Virus record (IMG/VR): IMGVR_UViG_2579778952_000011 | Coordinates: 1-21,093 of that record | From: a virus | Lineage: Duplodnaviria; Heunggongvirae; Uroviricota; Caudoviricetes | Reading direction: 5' to 3' (one strand) | Length of the DNA: 21,093 nucleotides | Shown: positions 1-11,441 of the stretch, in pieces | Position numbering within the stretch: the first letter of the stretch is position 1 | Layout: each line of letters begins with the position of its first letter | The notes under the pieces: generated by a model | Told to the model about the DNA's origin: nothing | What the model saw: only the letters and a program-made list of their open reading frames with translations | The model's database searches: none | Program-made: the position numbers and the translations under genes

Positions 1-1005
1 TTAATCCCCCGTGGACACTGCGTGGACACTCACGCCACCTTTCAGCGGATTAAGGGCCACCGCATCCTGCAGGTAATCCGGTGCAAAATGTGCATATGCC
101 ATTGTTTGCTGAATGGTTGCGTGGCCAAGAATCTTCTGAAGCGCAATAATGTTTCCTCCGTTCATCACAAAATGGCTGGCGAACGTATGCCGCAGCACAT
201 GCGCAGCCTGGCCTTTTGGCAAATCGGGCTTAACCCTTTTCAGCGCCAGGCAGAATTCCCGGTACTTCACCTCAAACAAGTTGCCTGTTTCTCTGGTTCT
301 GATCGCCTCACAAACCGCCTGTGAAATTGGCACCGTTCTCTTCCGGCCATTTTTGGTTTCAAGAAACGTTACACGGTTATGAACTATCTGTTCACCACGA
401 AGCTTACAAGCTTCACTCCAGCGCGCCCCTGTGCTTAAACACAAAAGCGCAACACGCCAGTAGTCGCCCTCCAGTGTATCGAGCAATAGCGCCACTTCCT
501 TCTGTGACAGGAACGCCATTTCTCGTGGAGATACATAAAGAATAGAAATTCCCCTTACTGGATGTTCTGCATCCCAAAGACCTATTTTTTTCAGCACGGT
601 AAACATTCCGGATAACCGATTCATGTACCTGTTAGCAGATGACGGTTTCAATCCAGCAGCTATCTTTTGAGAACGCCACGCGATAATTTTCAGCTTATCA
701 AGATCCACAGCCTGCATATCAGCGCCAAGCTCATTGATTATGTTGCACAGTTGTTTTCGGTCTTCTTCCGCCTTACGCCTGTGTTGACCGTGATACATCC
801 ACCACAACTCAAGCAAATCATTTAGCGTTCGGCGATCACGGTAGCCCTGTATATATTCCCGCTTTTCAGCGTTCGCCATGATGTAGCGTTCAGTGGCCAC
901 CGCTACCGATTTTTTGTCAAATACCTTACGCACGCGCTTTCCCTTGCGTCCGTTCGGCCTGATGTCCAGCAAATAACGACCATCTTCGAGCTTCTTAATT
1001 GACAT
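1..1005 (-). CDS. int: Tyrosine-type phage integrase (P2 Int-like)
   Basis: The open frame runs 1..1020 with a TTG at 1018..1020. I place the start at the ATG at 1003..1005 (MSIKKLEDGRY...), which has a GGAGGG Shine-Dalgarno 7 nt upstream; that gives 334 aa. The C-terminal catalytic region has R...HxxRH...Y-like spacing (VLRHTFASH...TMAYAH). Stop TAA is at 3..1 on the minus strand. Confidence 0.9.
   Translation of the reverse strand: MSIKKLEDGRYLLDIRPNGRKGKRVRKVFDKKSVAVATERYIMANAEKREYIQGYRDRRTLNDLLELWWMYHGQHRRKAEEDRKQLCNIINELGADMQAVDLDKLKIIAWRSQKIAAGLKPSSANRYMNRLSGMFTVLKKIGLWDAEHPVRGISILYVSPREMAFLSQKEVALLLDTLEGDYWRVALLCLSTGARWSEACKLRGEQIVHNRVTFLETKNGRKRTVPISQAVCEAIRTRETGNLFEVKYREFCLALKRVKPDLPKGQAAHVLRHTFASHFVMNGGNIIALQKILGHATIQQTMAYAHFAPDYLQDAVALNPLKGGVSVHAVSTGD
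11..28 (+). repeat. Putative attL core (gtggacactgcgtggaca), lying inside the last codons of int
   Basis: Matches 19913..19930 (gtggtcactgcgtggaca) at 17 of 18 positions, in direct orientation, exactly at the two expected prophage ends. Confidence 0.6.
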
Positions 1006-1101
1006 TGCGAAGCCCTCCAATGAACCGCCCTACAATTTCTCCAGCCTCTTTCCAGCAATAATCAGACCAGACAAAGAGCAGGTCTAACCAGTTTTCTGGC
1101 C

Positions 1102-1440
1102 TTAGCGGGGTGATTTTTGGTTTGTTTCGGTTGAAACCTGATCGCCCTCCGAATCGAAGAAGCCATCAAGAGAGAGAGGCGGAGCAATCTGCCCCGTCGC
1201 AGCATTAGTTTGATTAAACATCACCCAATCCGAATACTTCCGAAAACGAGGATGATTCAAAATCAGGAGTAACGTTTCTCCAGGTATCATTCTTCCCAAT
1301 ATTTCATAATTTTTGAGATTGTATTGAGATACCCCTGTCACCTCCTCCATCTCTCTACGTGACAATCCCTCTGCCTCTCGAATCAGGCGAAGTTTTTCTC
1401 CAAGGCTTGATTTATGGATCATATGTGATCTAAACTCCAT
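1102..1440 (-). CDS. C: C-type immunity repressor (P2 C-like)
   Basis: A 106-112 aa ORF immediately upstream of int on the same strand, with a helix-turn-helix-like segment (LSRREMEEVTGVSQYNLKNYE) and a GQIAP motif that I recall from P2 C. The start may instead be the internal ATG at 1422. Confidence 0.7.
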   Translation of the reverse strand: MEFRSHMIHKSSLGEKLRLIREAEGLSRREMEEVTGVSQYNLKNYEILGRMIPGETLLLILNHPRFRKYSDWVMFNQTNAATGQIAPPLSLDGFFDSEGDQVSTETNQKSPR

Positions 1441-1470
1441 GCTATTGGGTTACATGTGATACAAAACATT

Positions 1471-1537
1471 CAAATAGCCAAAATAAGCCTATATAAGCCA
1501 TTTTGGGCCATTTGGACGAATTAAGGAGATTACCACA
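1471..1537. promoter_or_regulatory. Divergent early promoter/operator region between the repressor and the cox-like gene
   Basis: Intergenic and AT-rich, with 10-bp-phased direct repeats (ataagcc at 1483 and 1493; gccatttt/gccatttgg at 1497 and 1507) and an AAGGAG Shine-Dalgarno at 1523..1528 ahead of the ATG at 1538. Confidence 0.4.
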
Positions 1538-1735
1538 ATGAGCGAATCAGAGCTTGAGGGGTTCATTCAGGTAGCACCATATCCACTTGAAGCGGTGCCA
1601 TATCAACTATTTGCCAAGATGATTGGTCGCAAAGAATCAACCGTCAGAACCATGATTGACGCTGCAAAGTTACCAACGATTGACTTTGTAAAACCAGGTT
1701 CAGTGAAGACGCGAGCATCAGAAAACTGGGTATAA
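1538..1735 (+). CDS. cox: Cox-like excisionase/transcriptional regulator, probably C-terminally truncated
   Basis: A 65-aa ORF divergent from C with a good Shine-Dalgarno. The segment PYQLFAKMIGRKESTVRTMIDAAKLPTIDF resembles the Cox DNA-binding region as I recall it. P2 Cox is about 91 aa, and this ORF is followed directly by late gene L instead of B/A. Confidence 0.5.
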   Translation: MSESELEGFIQVAPYPLEAVPYQLFAKMIGRKESTVRTMIDAAKLPTIDFVKPGSVKTRASENWV

Positions 1736-1752
1736 CGACTGACCCCGTCAGC

Positions 1753-1823
1753 GGGCGGCGTGCGCGGTGTTCCGGTTTGACTCCGTGACCGTTTACACCG
1801 CGCACCCACCGCCCGATTTTTTT
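1753..1823 (+). terminator. GC-rich imperfect hairpin followed by a T7 run (intrinsic terminator-like)
   Basis: gtgcgcggtgt (1760..1770) pairs with acaccgcgcac (1795..1805), extended by gggcgg/ccgccc, then ttttttt at 1817..1823. The loop is long (about 24 nt), so strength is uncertain. Confidence 0.45.
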
Positions 1824-1838
1824 CAGGAGTGAACCCCC

Positions 1839-2333
1839 ATGAGTATGGTTGCCAGAACTGAACCAAGACCCGCAGAGGACGACATCACCGATACCGATGA
1901 TGGTGATACCCGTATTTCAGCGGGTGCATTCTGGCCGGATATTGTGCTGCGTGAGCTGCGTCTGGCGATACGACTGCCGGGCCGTGTGACCACCTCCCGC
2001 CTGCTGCATACCGCCACCGGGGCAGTGGCACACGTTACCCGCGAGCTGGAAGCGTGGCAGCAGGAACAGCAGGCGGCTGGCCATCTGACGCTGGCCGATG
2101 TTCCGGCACCCGTAATTAACGGAGAAAGCGTCAATCTCTGGCACTGGCGCAATGCTGTTTATACCGCCACACGCGCCCTGATTCTGGAGCGTTACCGCGA
2201 TGCGGACACAACGGACAAGGGCGACCGCAGGGCGGACGCACTGGATATACAGACATCGGATTTGTGGCGTGATGTGAGCTGGGCCATCTCTGACATTCTG
2301 TGCCGCCCGCGAATCTTTGCGGAGTTGTGCTGA
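1839..2333 (+). CDS. L: Head completion/stabilisation protein (P2 gpL-like)
   Basis: A 164-aa ORF immediately upstream of X whose stop overlaps the X start. Position and size match P2 L; identity is inferred from synteny more than from motif recall. Confidence 0.6.
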   Translation: MSMVARTEPRPAEDDITDTDDGDTRISAGAFWPDIVLRELRLAIRLPGRVTTSRLLHTATGAVAHVTRELEAWQQEQQAAGHLTLADVPAPVINGESVNLWHWRNAVYTATRALILERYRDADTTDKGDRRADALDIQTSDLWRDVSWAISDILCRPRIFAELC

Positions 2334-4885: not shown

Positions 4886-5463
4886 GCGCAGAACTCATGC
4901 GACTGCTGAGCAACATCATCCGCACCGGGATCATCTCTGAAGTTGATGAGAAGTCCTGGTGCGTGCGCGTTCGCAGCGGCGAACTGGAAACAGGCTGGTT
5001 ACGCTGGAACACCACGCGCGCAGGAGCCTTCAACGTGTGGCTGCCGCCATCACCCGGCGAACAGGTGGTAATTGCCTGCATTGGCGGCAACCCGGAAACC
5101 GCCATGATAATTGGCAGCCTGTGGAGTGATGCCAATCCGGCACCCGGCAAAAGCCTGAAAGAAATCGTGATCAGCGCGCCGGACGGCGCGGTGTTCCGCT
5201 ACGACGCGGACGCAGGCGCACTGAGCGCCAGCGGCATGAAAACGGCCACTTTACAGGCATCCGTCAGCGTGAAACTGGATACGCCCGTCGTGGAATGCAC
5301 AAACCTTCTGAGAACAGCGACGCTTGACGTCACAAAAGGGGGAAAGATGAGCGGCAATATCACGCACAGCGGCGGCGATTTCACCTCAAACGGCATCACA
5401 GTGCATACGCATAAACACGGTGGCGTGAAAGGCGGCAGCGATTCGACAGGAGGCCCGCAGTGA
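4882..5463 (+). CDS. V: Baseplate central spike protein V
   Basis: GTG start overlapping the S stop; 193 aa. N-terminal OB-fold-like region and a Gly-rich C-terminus (HSGGDFTSNGITVHTHKHGG), typical of gpV/gp5-like spikes. Confidence 0.8.
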   Translation: MSAELMRLLSNIIRTGIISEVDEKSWCVRVRSGELETGWLRWNTTRAGAFNVWLPPSPGEQVVIACIGGNPETAMIIGSLWSDANPAPGKSLKEIVISAPDGAVFRYDADAGALSASGMKTATLQASVSVKLDTPVVECTNLLRTATLDVTKGGKMSGNITHSGGDFTSNGITVHTHKHGGVKGGSDSTGGPQ

Positions 5464-5810
5464 CAACCCGCTACACAGGAATGAATCCGGACGGGACGGG
5501 AAACCTGAACGATATGGAGCACCTGAAACAGTCAGTCAGGGACATCCTGACCACCCCGCTGGCAAGCCGGGTTATGCGACGGGAATATGGCAGCCTTGTG
5601 CCTGATTTGATTGACGAACCCATGAATAACACCACGCGTCTGCAATGCATGAGTGCTGCCGTGATTGCGCTGACACGATGGGAACCCCGCATTGCCCTGG
5701 ATGCCATCGACGTTGTCTGGAAAGCGGGAGGCCGCGCAGGGGTGATGCTGTCGGGCACTGTCATGCAGACCATGCAGAATGTTGAGTTAACCATCACGCT
5801 GAGGGAGTAA
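5460..5810 (+). CDS. W: Baseplate wedge protein W (gp25-like)
   Basis: A 116-aa ORF with start overlapping the V stop; its size and position match gpW. Confidence 0.8.
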   Translation: MTTRYTGMNPDGTGNLNDMEHLKQSVRDILTTPLASRVMRREYGSLVPDLIDEPMNNTTRLQCMSAAVIALTRWEPRIALDAIDVVWKAGGRAGVMLSGTVMQTMQNVELTITLRE

Positions 5811-5813
5811 ATC

Positions 5814-6710
5814 ATGCCTGCTGTTGACCTTTCCCAGTTACCGGAACCCGCCATCATCGCGGAGCCTGATTTTGAGGCAATTCTGGCTGACACAAAGGCC
5901 ATGATGATTGCGGCTTATCCCGCCGAACAGCGTGAAGCCGTTTCCGCCGCGCTGGAGCTGGAATCGGAACCCCTTAACGTTATCGCTCAAACCATGTCGT
6001 TTCGTGAAATGCTGTTACGCCAGCGGGTCAATGAGGGGGCTCGCGCCTGCATGTTAAGCCACAGCGCCGGGACAGACCTGGACAACCTCGCGGGCAATAT
6101 GAACACAAAGCGCCTGACCATCACTCCGGCAACGGATACCACCGACGCGGTGATGGAGAGTGACACCTCACTGAGACTGCGGGCGCAGCGGGCGTACGAC
6201 GGCCTGAGTGTTGCTGGCCCGTCAGGTGCATACGAGTATTTTGCCCGCAGCGCCAGCGGTCTGGTGCGTGATGCGCGGGCCATCAGCCCGTCTCCGGCAA
6301 ATGTGACGGTTTCCATCCTGTCCACTGAAGGCGACCGCACAGCAACGGAGGCGTTGCTTAATACCGTTCGCGCCGTTCTGAATGCAGAGGATACCCGTCC
6401 GGTGGCCGACCGCCTGACCGTACAGAGTGCCAGAATCGTGACATGGCGGCTGAATGCAAAACTGTACTTTTACCCCGGCCCGGAATCCGAACCTATTCTG
6501 GCTGCGGCGGAATCGTCGTTCAGGAAGTGGCTGGCTGAGCAGGGGCTTATCGGTCAGGACGTGGCGTTGTCCGCCATTGCTGCCGCACTGCATGTGCACG
6601 GTGTGCAACGCGTGGAGATAATCGAACCCACACAGAATATGGCCATCAGCGACATACAGGCGGCGCGCTGTGAGTCGTTCACCATCAGCGAAGGTGGGCG
6701 TAATGAGTAA
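5814..6710 (+). CDS. J: Baseplate assembly protein J
   Basis: A 298-aa ORF between W and I; its size matches P2 gpJ. Confidence 0.8.
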   Translation: MPAVDLSQLPEPAIIAEPDFEAILADTKAMMIAAYPAEQREAVSAALELESEPLNVIAQTMSFREMLLRQRVNEGARACMLSHSAGTDLDNLAGNMNTKRLTITPATDTTDAVMESDTSLRLRAQRAYDGLSVAGPSGAYEYFARSASGLVRDARAISPSPANVTVSILSTEGDRTATEALLNTVRAVLNAEDTRPVADRLTVQSARIVTWRLNAKLYFYPGPESEPILAAAESSFRKWLAEQGLIGQDVALSAIAAALHVHGVQRVEIIEPTQNMAISDIQAARCESFTISEGGRNE

Positions 6711-7233
6711 TTCGTTGTTACCCCCATCAGCCAGCAATTTCATGCGTTGTGCAGAAGCCGTCGGAACACGCATTACAGACATCCCGGTAGACCTCAACAC
6801 ACTGTGGTCCCCGGACACCTGCCCGGTGCACCTGCTGCCTTATCTCGCCTGGGCATTTTCCGTTGACCGCTGGGATCGCAACTGGCCGGAAGAGACAAAG
6901 CGACAGGTTATTCGTGATGCATGGCTGATACACCGACACAAAGGGACCATCAGCGCACTGCGCCGGGCCATTGAGCCGCTGGGATACCTCATTCGCGTGT
7001 CTGAGTGGTGGGAATTCGGCGGAGAACCGGGAACATTTACCGTTGAAGTCGGCACGCTGGACAGTGGCGTGACGGAGGAAATGTATCTGGAAATGGAGCG
7101 GTTGATTGCTGATGCCCGCCCGGTCAGCCGCCACATGACAGGGCTGAATATCATTCAGGAAATTCCGGGGGATATTTTCGCAGCGGCGGCAACTTATGAC
7201 GGTGAAGTTATCACCATTTATCCAGGCGATTAA
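6703..7233 (+). CDS. I: Baseplate protein I
   Basis: ATG at 6703 overlaps the J stop; 176 aa, the same as P2 gpI. Confidence 0.8.
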
Positions 7234-7235
7234 GC

Positions 7236-9632
7236 ATGAGTACCACAACACGAAAATTTAAAACCGTTATCACCGATACGGGTGCAAAAAAATTAGCTCA
7301 GGCAGCCGCGCCAGATGGTAAGCCTGTCCGCCTGACTCATATGGCCGTGGGCGACGGTGGCGGCACGTTGCCCACACCAGACAGTAAGCAGACCCGTCTG
7401 GTGCATGAGGTGTGGCGACATACTGTTAATCGCGTCATCCTGGACGCAACACATCAGAATCGCATTATTGCGGAGCTGGTTATTCCTCCAGAAACGGGCG
7501 GATTCTGGATCCGGGAAATTGGTGTGTTTGATGAGCACGGCGATTTAATCGCGGTGGGCAATACTGCCGAAAGTTACAAGCCAGCCGTTGCCGAAGGGTC
7601 CGGTCGTGCACAAACATTTCGCACCATTCTGACCGTATCCAGCACTGCCACTGTGGCGCTTACCGTGGATAACACCATGGTGATGGCCACAGTGGATTAC
7701 GTGGATAACAAACTGAAAGAGCATGAACAGTCACGACGTCACCCGGATGCCTCGCTGACCGCAAAAGGCTTTGTTCAACTCAGTAGCGCCACTAACAGCG
7801 TGTCTGAAACACAAGCTGCAACGCCGAAAGCAGTAAAGGCCGCGTATGACCTTGCTAACGGGAAATATACTGCGCAGGATGCCAGCACAACGCGAAAAGG
7901 CCTTGTCCAGCTCAGTAGCGCCACCAACAGCGATTCTGAAACGCTGGCGGCAACACCAAAGGCGGTAAAGGCAGCATATGACCTTGCTAACGGGAAATAT
8001 ACCGCACAGGACGCTACCACAGCGCGAAAAGGTCTTATCCAGCTCAGCAGTGCGACTAACAGCACTTCCGAGTCACTGGCGGCAACGCCAAAAGCCGTTA
8101 AGGCCGCGTATGAGCTGGCTAACGGGAAATACACCGCACAGGATGCAACGACAGCACAGAAAGGGATAGTTCAGCTTAGCAACGCGACCAACAGCACATC
8201 TGAAACGCTGGCGGCAACGCCAAAGGCGGTAAAGGCAGCATATGACCTTGCTAACGGGAAATATACCGCACAGGACGCTACCACAGCGCGAAAAGGTCTT
8301 ATCCAGCTCAGCAGTGCGACTAACAGCACTTCCGAGTCACTGGCGGCAACGCCAAAAGCCGTTAAGGCCGCGTATGAGCTGGCTAACGGGAAATACACCG
8401 CACAGGATGCAACGACAGCACAGAAAGGGATAGTTCAGCTTAGCAACGCGACCAACAGCACATCTGAAACGCTGGCGGCAACGCCAAAGGCGGTAAAGGC
8501 AGCATATGACCTTGCTAACGGGAAATATACCGCACAGGACGCTACCACAGCGCGAAAAGGTCTTGTCCAGCTCAGTAGTGCAACCAACAGCACGTCTGAA
8601 ACGCTTGCCGCGACCCCGAAAGCGGTTAAAGCTGCTAATGACAATGCAAACGGGCGTGTGCCCTCTGGACGTAAGGTTAATGGCAAACCACTGACCAATG
8701 ATGTCAATGTTACATCACAGGATATTTTTAACGGTCAGAGTATTAATATTGGTGCAAACCAGAATCTGGATAATTACAAAACGCCGGGGCTGTACCATCA
8801 ACCCCTGAATGCCTATACAAGTGCAGCGCTGAAATACCCAGAGAATCTTGCCGGTACACTGGTTGTGCTTAAAAATGCCGGGATAACACAGATTTACTAT
8901 GTGTATAACACATCCAGAAGCTATACCCGCAGCCAGTACTCAACGGGTGACTGGACAGCATGGACGCCGCAGGATTCATTTCCTGTAGGTGCGGCGATTC
9001 CGTGGCCTTCTGATTCAGTGCCTACAGGCTATGCCGTTATGCAGGGGCAGACTTTTGATAAAACAACCTATCCCCTGCTTGCAGCAGCTTATCCCTCTGG
9101 TGTACTCCCCGATATGCGTGGCTGGACAATCAAGGGCAAACCCGCCAGTGGTCGGGACGTATTGTCTCTGGAACAGGATGGCATTAAATCGCACACCCAC
9201 AGCGCCAGCGCATCCAATACGGATTTGGGTACGAAAACCACATCTTCGTTTGATTACGGTACTAAATCAACGAATAACACAGGTGCACATACCCACAATG
9301 TATCTGGTACTGCAAATAGTGCTGGCGCACATACTCATACCGTGCCATTAAGGAGACCAAACAGTGGCGGTATGAATTTCGACTGGCTGGATGGTGCATC
9401 AAGTGGCACGGTGGTAGGGAATGGAACTGTGCCTTCTTCTGGCGCACATACCCACTCAGTATCAGGCACCGCTACAAGTGCTGGGGCACATGCACACACT
9501 GTTGGTATTGGCGCTCATACGCACTCTGTTGCGATTGGTTCACATGGACATACCATCACCGTTAACGCTGCTGGTAACGCGGAAAACACCGTTAAAAACA
9601 TCGCATTTAATTATATTGTGAGGCTTGCATAA
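7236..9632 (+). CDS. H: Tail fibre protein H with expanded fibre repeats and a His-rich distal tip
   Basis: 798 aa. Conserved P2 H-like N-terminus, seven tandem 44-aa repeats (KG[FLI][26 protein letters not shown]), a tail-collar-like segment ([28 protein letters not shown]) and repeated GAHTH motifs. Confidence 0.9.
7764..8687 (+). repeat. Seven tandem 132-bp coding repeats inside H, including an exact 264-bp tandem duplication
   Basis: Sequence 7957..8300 is identical to 8221..8564 (344 bp at a 264-bp offset). Successive repeat units begin at 7764, 7896, 8028, 8160, 8292, 8424 and 8556. Confidence 0.9.
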
Positions 9633-10249
9633 TGGCATTCAGAATGAGTGAACAATCACGCACTGTAAAAATTTATAACCTGCTGGCCGGAACTAATGAG
9701 TTTATTGGTGAAGGTGACGCATATATTCCACCTCATACAGGGCTGCCAGCTAATTCTACAGATATCGCCCCACCGGAAATTCCTGCTGGCTTTGTGGCAG
9801 TTTTTAACAGTGAAAATGAATCGTGGAATATTGTTGAAGACCATCGTGGTAAAACGGTCTATGACGTGGCATCGGGGGACGCGTTGTTTATTTCTGAACC
9901 CGGACCGCTACCAGAGAATGTCACCTGGTTGTCGCCAGCAGGGGAATATCAGAAGTGGGACGGCGTATCCTGGGTGAAGGATGAGGAAGCAGAAAAACTG
10001 TTTCGGATACGGGAAGCGGAAGAGAAAAAGGCAAGGTTGATCCAGGAGGCAACAGATAACATCGCAATCCTGCAGGATGCAGTTAATCTTGAAATAGCAA
10101 CAAACGAGGAAAATTCACAACTGGATTCCTGGAGAAAATACAGAGTATTAGTGAGTAGAATTGACACCAGTACAGCTCCGGATATCGTATGGCCAGAGCT
10201 GATGAATCAGGGTTATGTGCGGGAGGACGAGCAGATAACTTCAGACTGA
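9632..10249 (+). CDS. G: Tail fibre assembly chaperone (Tfa/gpG-like)
   Basis: TAATG overlap with the H stop; 205 aa; position and size typical of Tfa. AT-rich relative to the tail core genes. Confidence 0.8.
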
Positions 10250-10776
10250 AATTTAGTGATGAATGTTGAATCATCAGGAATATCATGCAATACCAATGCA
10301 TGAGCACCTATTGTGACATTGTTTCCTATACGCACTTTGCCACCAAGAATGGTGGCATTACAACCAATGGTCACATTATGTCCTATAACAATATCCATAT
10401 CATTAAAATCACCACGTAGCCCAATAGTTACCCCCGGTTTTATTGAACAATTTTCACCGATTGTTACTTTGTGACCGATAACAACACTGTTGAGATAAGA
10501 AATATCAAAACCTTTCCCTATATTTACAGTTAAAGGGACTGTTACATTATATTTATCAAGAATGAAACGTTCTATTTTCCCCGCAATCTTCCGACAGTAT
10601 CCGCCTTTATCAAAAAGGTATTTGGCTATGCGCCACCAAAATAAATAACGAAGTCTTCTATGTTTTATTGCGCGAACAATTGCCTTTCGCCAGGAGAAAG
10701 GACGCTCGCTACCGATTACTTCATAGTGAATACAGTCTTTAAGTTCATTAATATTCATATCTCTATTATTCAGCAT
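10213..10776 (-). CDS. Hexapeptide-repeat (left-handed beta-helix) acyl/acetyltransferase, CysE/WcaB-like; moron
   Basis: Clear [LIV]-G-x4 hexapeptide repeats ([20 protein letters not shown]...[35 protein letters not shown]) after an N-terminal helical region. Sits in an AT-rich island. Its 3' end overlaps the G stop convergently by 37 bp. Confidence 0.8.
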
Positions 10777-10899
10777 AAGATAATCATGTGACCAATTATT
10801 GTAATAATTTTAATGGTATGTTTCTACTGGCTATCCAGCGTGTCTGATACCCAGTAACAAATCGTTAACACAGGTGCAATCAAATGGTGAGTGTTAAGA

Positions 10900-10939
10900 C
10901 TGGCCACTTATTACCAGGTATGAGGGTATGAGTGGCCAG
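10900..10939 (-). other. 9-bp inverted repeat (ctggccact / agtggccag) enclosing a tandem ggtatgag ggtatgag, immediately 3' of U
   Basis: Seen directly in the sequence. Could be a weak terminator or protein-binding site at the left edge of the minus-strand tail block. Confidence 0.3.
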
Positions 10940-10946
10940 CATTAAA

Positions 10947-11441
10947 TCAGAACAGCCCTTTAACTGAACTGGCCGCGCTGTTAAGGGATGATGTCACTTT
11001 ATCTTTGAAGCCGGACAGAATATCGCTGAACGATGAGGATTGCAGGCGCTCCCGCAAATCCTCATCACAGCGTTCAAGGGTCAGTGAAAATTCTATCTTT
11101 TTCGCCTTACCGTAGCGATCAAACTCGGAACGGGTCGTATTCGTTTCGGTCAGGACATACATGCCGTAAATCTGCCCGACGCCATCAATAAGAGGCCAGG
11201 GGCGTCCTGTATACGCCTGCGTGGTCAGCAGCGACAGCGACACTTCGCCACCTGTAATTTCAGGATAAAGCACACCAGAAAGAACGATGCGATCATCACC
11301 TGCACCGATATACTGCCAGCTTGCTGAACGGTTAACGCGTTCATTTTTCACATGCCGCCAGCTTTTGTTTTGCTGTAACTGCTGATGCGGCAGCGTGCGC
11401 AGCTCAAAAACAAACATGCCGTAGATCATCATCATGGCCAT
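10947..11441 (-). CDS. U: Tail protein U
   Basis: A roughly 162-aa ORF directly downstream of T on the minus strand. GAGGAG Shine-Dalgarno; the start is probably the second ATG at 11435. Confidence 0.75.
   Translation of the reverse strand: MAMMMIYGMFVFELRTLPHQQLQQNKSWRHVKNERVNRSASWQYIGAGDDRIVLSGVLYPEITGGEVSLSLLTTQAYTGRPWPLIDGVGQIYGMYVLTETNTTRSEFDRYGKAKKIEFSLTLERCDEDLRERLQSSSFSDILSGFKDKVTSSLNSAASSVKGLF

What the first reader, a model, noticed from the sequence alone, without database searches (positions are those of the whole stretch)
8690..10249. Mosaic receptor-binding cassette: fibre distal domain with a GAHTH-rich tip plus Tfa, more AT-rich than the shaft
After the repeats, H switches to a lower-GC C-terminal domain with a tail-collar-like segment and five or more G(A/S)H(T/A)H motifs, resembling the metal-binding distal tips of T4 gp37 and lambda Stf-type fibres. 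The adjacent chaperone G is similarly AT-rich. This suggests horizontal replacement of the host-range module, which would define the target range of the particle.
Basis: partly seen in the sequence, partly recalled or inferred. Interest (0 to 1): 0.35.

Follow-up and report, generated by a model that had tools for sequence, protein, structure and literature searches.

The report
Swapped tail-fibre tip on P2-like prophage
The far end of this E. coli prophage's tail fibre gene, with its helper gene, is a well-known exchangeable host-recognition module of the phage T4 / phage lambda type grafted onto a P2-type fibre, which is a real but ordinary, textbook case of phage mosaicism.

Summary
After the 44-aa shaft repeats, H (7236-9632) runs into a knob-like domain, a Pfam Collar domain and a His-rich needle. 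There are 7 HxH motifs, and 5 fit G[AS]H[TA]H. GC falls from 57.6% (backbone) and 53.9% (shaft) to 47.6% across 8690-10249, at synonymous sites too.

H residues 579-798 are a true homologue of the T4 gp37 receptor-binding tip (PDB 2XGF, E=4.7e-82, about 64% identity) and of lambda Stf (about 66%). All seven iron-binding HxH pairs are conserved. Only the 36-residue distal head (nt 9339-9446) differs (12% identity to T4). G is 81% identical to lambda Tfa.

The N-terminal part of H matches only P2-like phages. Phage P88 (97% backbone identity) loses similarity at about 8640 and regains it at 10942.

The cassette is itself nested. Knob and collar are shared with P2-like phage Chuche. From about 9100 to 10940, the needle, head, Tfa and a convergent hexapeptide acetyltransferase are 90-100% identical to the unrelated phage 613R2, and also occur on lambdoid prophages.

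Identical sequence is already present and annotated in E. coli genomes. This kind of mosaic has been described since 1989-1992, so interest is low.

The parts
7236..9632 (+). Gene H, the tail fibre (798 aa). Its N-terminal attachment domain and shaft come from the P2/P88 lineage and its distal end from the gp37/Stf lineage.
   Evidence: ORF and translation. Pfam Phage_tail_fib aa 6-153 at E=6.5e-54, 7 Phage_fiber_2 repeats, Collar and Phage_fiber. PHROG 295 tail fiber protein.
7763..8631 (+). Shaft: 6.6 tandem copies of a 132-nt (44-aa) repeat. This lies outside the finding and marks its left border.
   Evidence: TRF. The closest E. coli prophages have 264 nt (two units) fewer.
8640..8978 (+). 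Post-repeat globular segment (aa 469-581), probably a pyocin-knob-like domain. It is shared with P2-like phages Chuche and STYP1 but not with P88, 613R2 or lambdoid phages.
   Evidence: Chuche is 90-97% identical at nt level and 94% at aa level. There is a weak match to the R1 pyocin fibre 6CL5 (E=0.006). NCBI names two homologues at 64-73% identity 'pyocin knob domain-containing protein'. No Pfam hit. The AF2 model failed.
8973..9125 (+). Collar domain (aa 580-630), equivalent to T4 gp37 residues 811-861.
   Evidence: Pfam Collar E=1.4e-11. 73% identical to T4, 75% to lambda, 71% to 613R2. At nt level it is closer to Chuche (88-95%) than to 613R2 (67-73%).
9126..9338 (+). Descending strands of the needle (aa 631-701) carrying HxH motifs 1-3. 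This stretch is also the conserved junction zone (about 9100-9280) where similarity switches from Chuche-like to 613R2-like.
   Evidence: 96% identical to 613R2, 91% to mEp332, 84% to lambda, 73% to T4. Sliding identity. HxH at aa 653, 685 and 699.
9339..9446 (+). Distal head domain (aa 702-737), equivalent to T4 gp37 residues 932-965. This is the presumed receptor-contact surface and the specificity-determining hypervariable segment.
   Evidence: 12% identical to T4, 29% to lambda, 27% to mEp332, but 97% to 613R2 and 100% to E. coli RIVM_C039227. Only 2 of the 11 T4 residues shown by mutagenesis to bind LPS or OmpC are retained (residues from PMC6957217).
9447..9629 (+). Ascending strands of the needle (aa 738-798) carrying HxH motifs 4-7 and the invariant C-terminus [11 protein letters not shown].
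   Evidence: 98% identical to 613R2, 97% to mEp332, 90% to lambda, 77% to T4. A 62-nt direct repeat at 9282-9343 and 9441-9502 brackets the head.
9632..10249 (+). Gene G, the tail fibre assembly chaperone (Tfa, 205 aa), translationally coupled to H.
   Evidence: Pfam Caudo_TAP E=1.6e-39. PHROG 105. 99% identical to 613R2, 81% to lambda Tfa, 28% to T4 gp38. The C-terminal part matches Mu Tfa 5YVQ_B at E=3.5e-10. Similarity to lambdoid phages fades after about nt 10000.
10213..10776 (-). Convergent left-handed beta-helix (hexapeptide) acetyltransferase gene, 37% GC. It travels with the tip and Tfa, so it is part of the exchanged unit although it lies outside the finding's coordinates.
   Evidence: Pfam Hexapep. 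NCBIfam EpsC, CysE and WcaB all match below their cut-offs. 98% identical in 613R2, where it is contiguous with Tfa. The same trio sits on a lambdoid prophage and, in more diverged form, on a P1-like phage and phiNP.
10777..10941 (.). AT-rich spacer and right junction. P88-type backbone similarity resumes at 10942, at the 3' end of gene U.
   Evidence: P88 is 98.1% identical from 10942 onward. 613R2 similarity ends at 11037, where that record ends. Promoter-like hexamers for the acetyltransferase lie at 10826-10765 on the minus strand, as consensus matches only.

Best explanation
Region 8690-10249 encodes the host-recognition end of a P2-family (P88/Xuanwuvirus-type) prophage tail fibre together with its dedicated chaperone. 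This end belongs to the T4 gp37 / lambda Stf tip family, not to the lineage of the rest of the tail.

Shown:
- H is a chimera. Its parts, in order, are a P2-type baseplate-attachment domain, a 44-aa repeat shaft, a knob-like domain, a collar, and a needle with seven conserved HxH pairs and a 36-residue head at the far end.
- G is a lambda-Tfa/gp38-type chaperone gene overlapping the H stop codon.
- Different segments have different nearest relatives, and the module keeps its own base composition (about 48-50% GC) whether it sits on a 58% GC or a 38% GC backbone.

Inferred from the homologues:
- Three H chains form an intertwined beta-needle stabilised by seven metal ions (Fe2+ in T4), each held by six histidines.
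- G promotes trimerisation and folding of this needle.
- The head domain contacts a surface receptor (an LPS sugar or an outer-membrane porin in relatives) and sets adsorption specificity. Because the head is unrelated to those of T4 and lambda, the receptor cannot be read off from them.
- The module was acquired, and is reshuffled, by homologous recombination within the conserved collar and needle stretches and the Tfa gene. These stretches are shared at 83-97% with lambdoid prophages present in most E. coli genomes.
For: - Tip homology: PDB 2XGF (T4 gp37 tip) matches H aa 579-798 at E=4.7e-82. tblastn gives 63.8% identity to T4 and 65-67% to lambda Stf. All 14 histidines of the 7 HxH motifs are invariant across the window, 613R2, lambda, T4 and mEp332.
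- Divergence is concentrated in the head: 12-29% identity there against 73-98% in the flanks. This is the pattern reported for the family in PMC9659904.
- Chaperone: Caudo_TAP E=1.6e-39, 81% identical to lambda Tfa and 28% to gp38.
- The N-terminal part matches only P2-like phages.
- Junctions: P88 is 96.9% identical up to the end of the repeats and 98.1% from 10942, with nothing in between. Chuche is 90-97% identical to about 9100. 613R2 is 90-100% identical from 9100 to 10900.
- Population counts: the J-I-H(N) backbone is in 725 complete E. coli genomes, the needle+Tfa+acetyltransferase unit in 199, and the full H-G-acetyltransferase combination in 42.
- Composition. In 613R2 the backbone is 38% GC and the tip 50%.
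- Mechanism precedent: lambda acquires stf-tfa sequence from the Rac and Qin prophages by homologous recombination in 88-95% identical stretches (PMC3945230).
Against: - Nothing here tests function. Trimerisation, metal binding, chaperone dependence and receptor binding are all inferred from homologues.
- The receptor is unknown.
- The direction and timing of transfer cannot be established. The same chimera is already fixed in a group of E. coli prophages, so no exchange happened in this particular strain.
- The GC drop is shared by the non-homologous distal fibre and chaperone genes of other P2-like phages. Composition on its own therefore does not discriminate between alleles.
- The prophage in this window has lost its head and replication genes, so the cassette may currently not be expressed in any infectious particle.
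Confidence: 0.9

Rival explanations
1. There was no horizontal replacement. The distal fibre and G were inherited vertically in the P88 lineage and only look foreign because host-range genes evolve fast and have an unusual amino-acid composition (Gly/Ser/Thr/His/Asn-rich), which lowers GC.
For: Distal fibre and chaperone genes are low in GC in every P2-like phage examined, for example P88 at 47.6% and 43.6%, as well as Chuche, phiNP and yong2. The hypervariable head could be a product of diversifying selection.
Against: The tip and G are 82-97% identical at nucleotide level to lambdoid stf-tfa, and 90-100% identical to phage 613R2, whose backbone is unrelated and 38% GC. P88, which is 97-98% identical on both sides, has no detectable nucleotide similarity in between. 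GC3 drops as well. Only 42 of 725 genomes with this backbone carry this cassette.
Confidence: 0.04
2. The region is one orientation of an invertible, shufflon-like tail-fibre segment, as in Mu G, P1 C and phage P88 itself, so host range would switch by site-specific inversion rather than being fixed.
For: The closest named phage, P88, carries a DNA invertase, a second inverted fibre-tip gene with its own chaperone, and a 65-nt inverted repeat in exactly this slot. PMC3945230 suggests that invertases drove the ancient stf exchanges.
Against: The window has no invertase gene, no second tip or chaperone copy, and no inverted repeats of 16 nt or more in 8500-11000. The slot is filled instead by the acetyltransferase gene.
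Confidence: 0.02
3. The functional unit is a trio: tip, chaperone and acetyltransferase. The acetyltransferase would O-acetylate a surface polysaccharide (O-antigen, LPS or exopolysaccharide) in the lysogen and so mask the receptor recognised by the co-inherited tip. That would give superinfection exclusion and would protect released particles from adsorbing to debris.
For: - The acetyltransferase is contiguous with Tfa at 98% identity on the unrelated 613R2 backbone and at 90% aa identity on a lambdoid prophage after stf-tfa.
- Diverged homologues (37-39% identity) sit convergently next to lambda-type Tfa and gp37-type tips in P1-like JL22 and in phiNP.
- 199 E. coli genomes carry the needle+Tfa+acetyltransferase unit.
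- The best family matches are polysaccharide acetyltransferases (EpsC, WcaB) and CysE, all below their cut-offs.
- From my own knowledge, the precedents are NeuO of prophage CUS-3 and the O-antigen acetyltransferases of Sf6 and phiV10.
Against: - Lambda, T4, mEp332 and Chuche have the same type of tip without the gene.
- A related acetyltransferase in ESSI2_ev015 sits next to the integrase instead.
- In yong2 it is next to a different kind of fibre.
- The position after the last late gene is a known permissive site for accessory genes in P2-like phages (Z/fun region, from my own knowledge), so the linkage may be hitch-hiking.
- No substrate is known, and the held literature says nothing on the association.
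Confidence: 0.2

Closest known systems
T4 gp37 long-tail-fibre receptor-binding tip (PDB 2XGF; Bartual et al. 2010) with chaperone gp38
   Same: The collar, six-stranded needle and head layout is shared. There is 64% identity over 218 aa (E=4.7e-82). All seven HxH iron-site pairs and the C-terminal [11 protein letters not shown] are conserved. A chaperone gene lies immediately downstream.
   Different: The head, equivalent to gp37 932-965, is only 12% identical, and 9 of the 11 mapped LPS/OmpC contact residues are changed. It sits on a 798-aa P2-type fibre rather than the 1026-aa distal half-fibre of a virulent T-even phage. The chaperone is lambda-Tfa-like, with only 28% identity to gp38.
Lambda (Ur-lambda) side tail fibre Stf and Tfa, and the stfR/tfaR and tfaQ genes of E. 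coli cryptic prophages
   Same: The tip is 65-67% identical at aa level and the needle stems 83-95% at nt level. Tfa is 81% identical. Both have the same 1-nt stop/start overlap.
   Different: The lambda needle has extra inserted repeats and a different head (29% identity). The last third of Tfa diverges to 60-70% nt identity. In lambda the fibre attaches to a siphovirus tail through a different N-terminal domain.
The 'T4- and lambda-based RBP family' defined from Citrobacter phage phiNP ORF6/ORF5 (Magaziner & Salmond 2022, PMC9659904)
   Same: The family is defined by a conserved distal ~215 aa, with divergence confined to the gp37 932-965 equivalent, and a gp38/Tfa-type gene directly downstream. 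This H-G pair fits all three features. The tip is 66% and Tfa 53% identical to phiNP. phiNP also has a convergent hexapeptide acetyltransferase next to Tfa.
   Different: The phiNP fibre is only 282 aa and its receptor is known (LPS Glc-II). Here the fibre is long and has a different head allele.
P2 gpH/gpG and the horizontal transfer of tail-fibre genes among unrelated phages (Haggard-Ljungquist et al. 1992; Montag et al. 1989; Sandmeier et al. 1992; cited in PMC3945230 and PMC9594776)
   Same: The gene order is I-H-G. The N-terminal domain is P2-type (63-67% identity to P2-like phages). The fibre C-terminus and chaperone are related to those of unrelated phages, which is exactly the phenomenon those papers describe.
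   Different: The particular allele combination differs: P88-type N-terminus and repeats, Chuche-type knob and collar, and 613R2-type needle, head, Tfa and acetyltransferase. The FI-U tail gene block is inverted relative to P2, as in P88.
Escherichia phage P88 (Xuanwuvirus) tail-fibre region
   Same: There is 96.9% nt identity through J, I and H up to the end of the repeats, and 98.1% from gene U onward.
   Different: P88 has an invertible two-tip system with a DNA invertase (4.2 kb) where the window has a fixed tip+Tfa+acetyltransferase (2.3 kb).

Membership tests
T4 gp37 / lambda Stf-type receptor-binding tip | The C-terminal ~215 aa is homologous to gp37 residues 811-1026 (collar + needle + head) | tested here: met
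   phmmer against PDB 2XGF gives E=4.7e-82 for H aa 579-798. tblastn gives 63.8% identity to T4 and 65-67% to lambda over 100% of the query.
T4 gp37 / lambda Stf-type receptor-binding tip | Seven HxH motifs in register with the iron-coordinating histidines of gp37 | tested here: met
   All 14 histidines are invariant columns in the 5-sequence alignment that includes T4. Seven HxH motifs are observed against a shuffle mean of 0.58 and maximum of 5.
T4 gp37 / lambda Stf-type receptor-binding tip | Phage tail collar domain preceding the needle | tested here: met
   Pfam PF07484 E=4.7e-11 / 1.4e-11, above the gathering score.
T4 gp37 / lambda Stf-type receptor-binding tip | Sequence divergence confined to the distal head (gp37 932-965 equivalent) | tested here: met
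   The head is 12-29% identical to T4, lambda and mEp332, against 73-97% in the flanking needle.
T4 gp37 / lambda Stf-type receptor-binding tip | Trimeric needle that actually binds metal ions and a cell-surface receptor | not testable with these tools
   This needs protein expression with G, metal analysis, a structure and adsorption assays. Only monomer prediction was available.
Caudo_TAP tail fibre assembly chaperone (lambda Tfa / T4 gp38 / P2 G / Mu U) | Pfam PF02413 domain, with the gene immediately downstream of the fibre gene | tested here: met
   E=1.6e-39. 81% identical to lambda Tfa and 28% to gp38. Mu Tfa 5YVQ_B matches at E=3.5e-10. There is a 1-nt overlap with the H stop codon.
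P2-family (Peduoviridae) tail fibre gpH | N-terminal Phage_tail_fib domain, with the gene located after baseplate genes J and I | tested here: met
   PF12571 E=6.5e-54 for aa 6-153. Baseplate_J and Tail_P2_I are encoded upstream. The N-terminal part matches only P2-like phages.
Invertible tail-fibre segment (Mu G / P1 C / P88 type) | Site-specific invertase gene, an inverted second tip and chaperone, and flanking inverted repeats | tested here: not met
   There is no invertase ORF and no inverted repeats in 8500-11000. P88 does have them.
Pyocin-knob domain (R-type pyocin fibre) | Knob fold in the segment aa 469-581 | tested here: inconclusive
   There is only a weak sequence match to 6CL5 (E=0.006), 6CT8 and 6CL6, plus NCBI's name for related fragments. 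No Pfam hit. The AF2 model was unusable at pLDDT 35.6.
Serine O-acetyltransferase CysE (the name in public annotation for 10213-10776) | Score above the NCBIfam equivalog cut-off for cysE | tested here: not met
   TIGR01172 scores 70.6 bits against a cut-off of 210.65. EpsC scores 81 against 150 and WcaB 61.9 against 196. The gene can only be called a hexapeptide-repeat acetyltransferase of unknown substrate.

The most novel reading that the evidence does not exclude
The gp37/Stf-type tip, its Tfa chaperone and the convergent hexapeptide acetyltransferase form a co-inherited 'recognise and mask' unit. On this reading, the acetyltransferase modifies the lysogen's surface polysaccharide so that the receptor seen by the co-transferred tip is hidden, and the trio moves together between P2-like, lambdoid, P1-like and other phage backbones.

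A second, less likely reading is that the head-less, replication-less prophage in this window makes tail-only, tailocin-like particles whose killing range is set by this cassette.
Probability: 0.15. Interest if true: 0.45.

Novelty: already known. Interest (0 to 1): 0.14.

Why it matters
This region shows which part of the prophage decides what its particles can attach to. The 36-residue head at nt 9339-9446 is the segment to swap or mutate if host range is to be changed or predicted. Beyond that, it is one more instance of the long-known trade in tail-fibre tips and chaperones among P2-like, lambdoid and T-even phages, and the exact sequence is already present and annotated in public E. coli genomes. 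The only lead that goes beyond the textbook is the repeated linkage of this tip and chaperone type with a hexapeptide acetyltransferase on several unrelated phage backbones. That linkage could be a receptor-masking function, and it is cheap to test.

Tried and rejected
- AlphaFold2 on the post-repeat segment (aa 469-581) with a 5-row alignment gave pLDDT 35.6, which is unusable. No fold search was run.
- The search for homologous proteins on that segment returned only 4 proteins, too few for a useful alignment.
- NCBIfam has no model matching H or G. Pfam has none for the knob segment, even at E=10.
- I looked for an invertible-segment architecture. There are no inverted repeats in the window. 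The inverted repeat in P88 (L003 7695-7759 and 10735-10799) does not coincide with the point where P88 and the window diverge (L003 about 7310), so the left junction is not at the P88 crossover site.
- Promoter and terminator scans around G and the acetyltransferase gave only consensus-level matches, not clearly above the shuffled expectation (8 against 4.4±2.1, and 3 against 1.4±1.2). They were not used as evidence.
- Literature searches for the acetyltransferase-Tfa linkage found nothing relevant. The SfIV 'moron' in PMC3851460 is a different locus, and PMC9603915 only lists the gene in P1-like plasmids.
- A search for receptor data on phage 613R2 found only genome listings.
- An assembly chimera was rejected, because the arrangement is 100% identical over 8500-11080 in a complete E. 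coli chromosome.
Full report
**Context.** The window is a P2-family prophage of E. coli inserted next to flk/yfcJ/fabB. Its gene order is int, C, cox', L, X, lysis genes, R, S, V, W, J, I, H, G, then an acetyltransferase gene on the other strand, then U, T, E, FII and FI (also on the other strand), and finally D and ogr. This order and the sequence match the P88 (Xuanwuvirus) type. Phage P88 is 96.9% identical across 5002-8104 and 98.1% identical from 10942 onward.

**Observation.**
- H is 7236-9632 (798 aa). G is 9632-10249 and overlaps the H stop codon by one base.
- Pfam finds the P2-type N-terminal fibre domain (aa 6-153, E=6.5e-54) and seven Phage_fiber_2 repeats. It also finds a Collar domain (aa 585-632, E=4.7e-11) and the short Phage_fiber repeat. 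G is Caudo_TAP (E=1.6e-39).
- The 132-nt repeat array ends at 8631.
- The C-terminal 146 residues hold 14 of the protein's 22 histidines, arranged as seven HxH motifs. Shuffles of H give a mean of 0.58 HxH and never reach 7.
- GC is 57.6% in the structural backbone, 53.9% in the H shaft, 48.6% in the distal part of H and 46.3% in G. It is 47.6% over the finding as a whole. No other 1,560-nt window in the structural region is below 51.7%.
- GC3 falls in parallel, so the shift is not just an effect of amino-acid composition.
The drop is gradual, however, and the sharpest outlier is the neighbouring acetyltransferase gene (37.1% GC).

**What the distal end is.**
- H aa 579-798 matches the crystal-structure construct of the T4 gp37 receptor-binding tip (2XGF) at E=4.7e-82. 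It is 63.8% identical to T4 gp37 and 65-67% identical to lambda Stf over its whole length.
- I aligned the tip with T4, Ur-type lambda, lambdoid mEp332 and phage 613R2. All 14 histidines of the seven HxH motifs are invariant, as are the collar core and the last 30 residues. In T4 these paired histidines coordinate seven iron ions along the needle axis (Bartual et al. 2010, as summarised in PMC11705849).
- Using T4 numbering, the window's collar is aa 580-630, the descending needle 631-701, the head 702-737 and the ascending needle 738-798. Identity to T4 is 73%, 73%, 12% and 77% in those four parts. Identity to lambda is 75%, 84%, 29% and 90%.
- The head corresponds to gp37 932-965. Mutagenesis mapped the LPS and OmpC contact residues there (PMC6957217), and only 2 of the 11 are retained here.
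- This matches the pattern reported for the 'T4- and lambda-based RBP family' built around Citrobacter phage phiNP. That family has conserved flanks, a divergent specificity segment, and a gp38/Tfa-type gene directly downstream (PMC9659904).
- G is 81% identical to lambda Tfa, 99% to 613R2 Tfa and 28% to T4 gp38. Its C-terminal part matches the Mu chaperone in 5YVQ.

**Mosaic structure.**
- The N-terminal 175 aa of H match only P2-like and related temperate contractile-tail phages, whereas the tip and G match lambdoid, T-even and other lineages.
- I computed nucleotide identity in 60-nt steps against reference loci, which gives a nested picture.
- P88 similarity stops at the end of the repeats (about 8640) and resumes at 10942. 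In between, P88 has a different tip, two chaperone genes, a second inverted tip and a DNA invertase.
- P2-like phage Chuche stays 90-97% identical through the knob-like segment and the collar. It fades to 80% by 9220-9279 and shows no aligned similarity in 9280-9519.
- Phage 613R2 has different baseplate genes and a 38% GC backbone. It is only 67-73% identical in the collar but 90-100% identical from about 9100 to 10900. That span covers the needle, head, Tfa, the acetyltransferase and the spacer.
- Lambdoid phages are 85-95% identical in the needle stems and undetectable in the head. They are 82-92% identical in Tfa up to about 10000, and diverged after that.
- The junction zones fall in the most conserved coding stretches, which fits homologous recombination. 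That mechanism has been shown experimentally for lambda acquiring stf-tfa DNA from Rac and Qin (PMC3945230).
- A 62-nt direct repeat (9282-9343 and 9441-9502, 76% identical) brackets the head.

**Population view.** Counts are out of 5,426 complete E. coli genomes, at 80% or more query coverage in each case.
- 725 carry the J-I-H(N) backbone.
- 199 carry the needle+Tfa+acetyltransferase unit.
- 42 carry the full H-G-acetyltransferase combination.
- E. coli 67-1 is 100% identical over 8500-11080, and these genes are annotated there as tail fiber protein, tail fiber assembly protein and serine acetyltransferase.

The chimera is thus an established allele of a common prophage family. It is not an event specific to this window and not an assembly artefact.

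**Composition in context.** The tip and Tfa have about the same GC wherever they sit.
- Window: 48.6% and 46.3%.
- 613R2: 49.8% and 45.6%.
- Lambda: 50.7% and 49.1%.

This holds although the backbones range from 38% to 58% GC. That supports a shared exchangeable gene pool. Non-homologous distal fibre and chaperone genes of P88, phiNP and yong2 show the same dip, so the dip is a class property rather than a signature of this allele.

**Mechanism (inferred).**
- Three H chains attach to the baseplate through the P2-type N-terminal domain and extend through the repeat shaft and the knob.
- G assists trimerisation of the metal-stapled needle.
- The head contacts the receptor.
- The receptor is unknown, because the head allele is shared only with uncharacterised prophages and 613R2.

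**Rivals.**
- Vertical descent with fast evolution is excluded by the high nucleotide identity to unrelated backbones and by the total loss of similarity to P88.
- An invertible segment is excluded, because there is no invertase and there are no inverted repeats.
- A broader functional unit that includes the acetyltransferase remains open. The evidence follows.

**Acetyltransferase linkage.**
- The gene at 10213-10776 (minus strand) encodes a hexapeptide-repeat acetyltransferase. Its matches to EpsC, CysE and WcaB all fall below their cut-offs, so the public label 'serine acetyltransferase' is not supported.
- It follows Tfa convergently in the window, in 613R2 (98% aa identity), in another P88-like prophage with a different shaft (99.5%), and in a lambdoid prophage after J-lom-stf-tfa (90%).
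- More diverged copies do the same in P1-like JL22 (37%) and in phiNP (39%).
- All of these carry gp37-type tips (66-94% identical) and lambda-type Tfa (53-99.5% identical).
- Counter-examples exist. Lambda, T4, mEp332 and Chuche lack the gene. In ESSI2_ev015 it sits beside the integrase. In yong2 it follows a different kind of fibre.
- Receptor masking by surface acetylation is a reasonable hypothesis, but hitch-hiking at a permissive end-of-operon site is at least as likely.

**Verdict.** The feature is a member of a well-described family in a well-described evolutionary pattern (Montag 1989, Haggard-Ljungquist 1992 and Sandmeier 1992, cited, and PMC9659904). Identical sequence is already public, so interest is low.

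Noticed in passing
window 1-1840 (junction at 1733/1734): The prophage in this window is head-less and replication-less. The integrase (1-1020, minus strand), a CI-type repressor (1102-1440, minus strand) and a truncated cox (1538-1735) are joined directly to the spacer upstream of the head-completion gene L (1839-2333). Compared with an otherwise 100% identical intact prophage in E. coli RIVM_C037134, 15,886 bp are missing, with a 2-nt (TA) overlap at the junction. The missing stretch holds the early genes, the replication endonuclease, parM, portal, both terminase subunits, scaffold and capsid. None of 5,426 complete E. coli genomes has this junction. All tail and lysis genes and ogr remain. 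This is most likely a recent decay event, and a tailocin-like role is untested.
   Followed up: partly
window 10213-10776 (minus strand), plus loci L002, L009, L012, L013, L015: A 37% GC hexapeptide acetyltransferase gene lies convergent to Tfa and overlaps the end of G by 37 nt. It recurs next to gp37/Stf-type tips and lambda-type Tfa on P2-like, lambdoid, P1-like, phiNP and 613R2 backbones at 37-99.5% aa identity. The public annotation 'serine acetyltransferase' is below the NCBIfam cut-offs. It may be a surface-polysaccharide modifying (receptor-masking) accessory gene.
   Followed up: partly
window 7763-8631: The H shaft repeat array varies in copy number. The window has one more 264-nt double unit (88 aa) than the closest E. 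coli prophages (67-1, RIVM strains), and other relatives have fewer still (O121 RM8352: H is 2001 nt). This is a fibre-length polymorphism produced by repeat slippage or recombination.
   Followed up: partly
L004 (phage Chuche) 7263-8132: In P2-like phage Chuche an extra 289-aa ORF of unknown function sits between a gp37-type fibre gene (tip 66% identical to the window's) and the Tfa gene. The window and lambda have nothing in that position. It could be an additional adhesin or chaperone.
   Followed up: no
L002 (phage vB_EcoM-613R2) 1-3735: The baseplate region of 613R2 is only 38% GC, unusually low for an E. coli phage. Its fibre tip is 50% GC, so in that genome the same cassette is GC-rich relative to its backbone.
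   Followed up: no
window 18500-19900: A low-GC island (35-38% GC) lies between ogr and the chromosomal flk gene. It holds a zinc-ribbon ORF (18556-18933) and two short ORFs with weak matches to the T6SS-associated VasI/TagO family (18938-19219 and 19594-19848). In E. coli 67-1 this region is annotated with hok/gef and a 188-aa TagO, so the TagO-like gene may be disrupted here.
   Followed up: no
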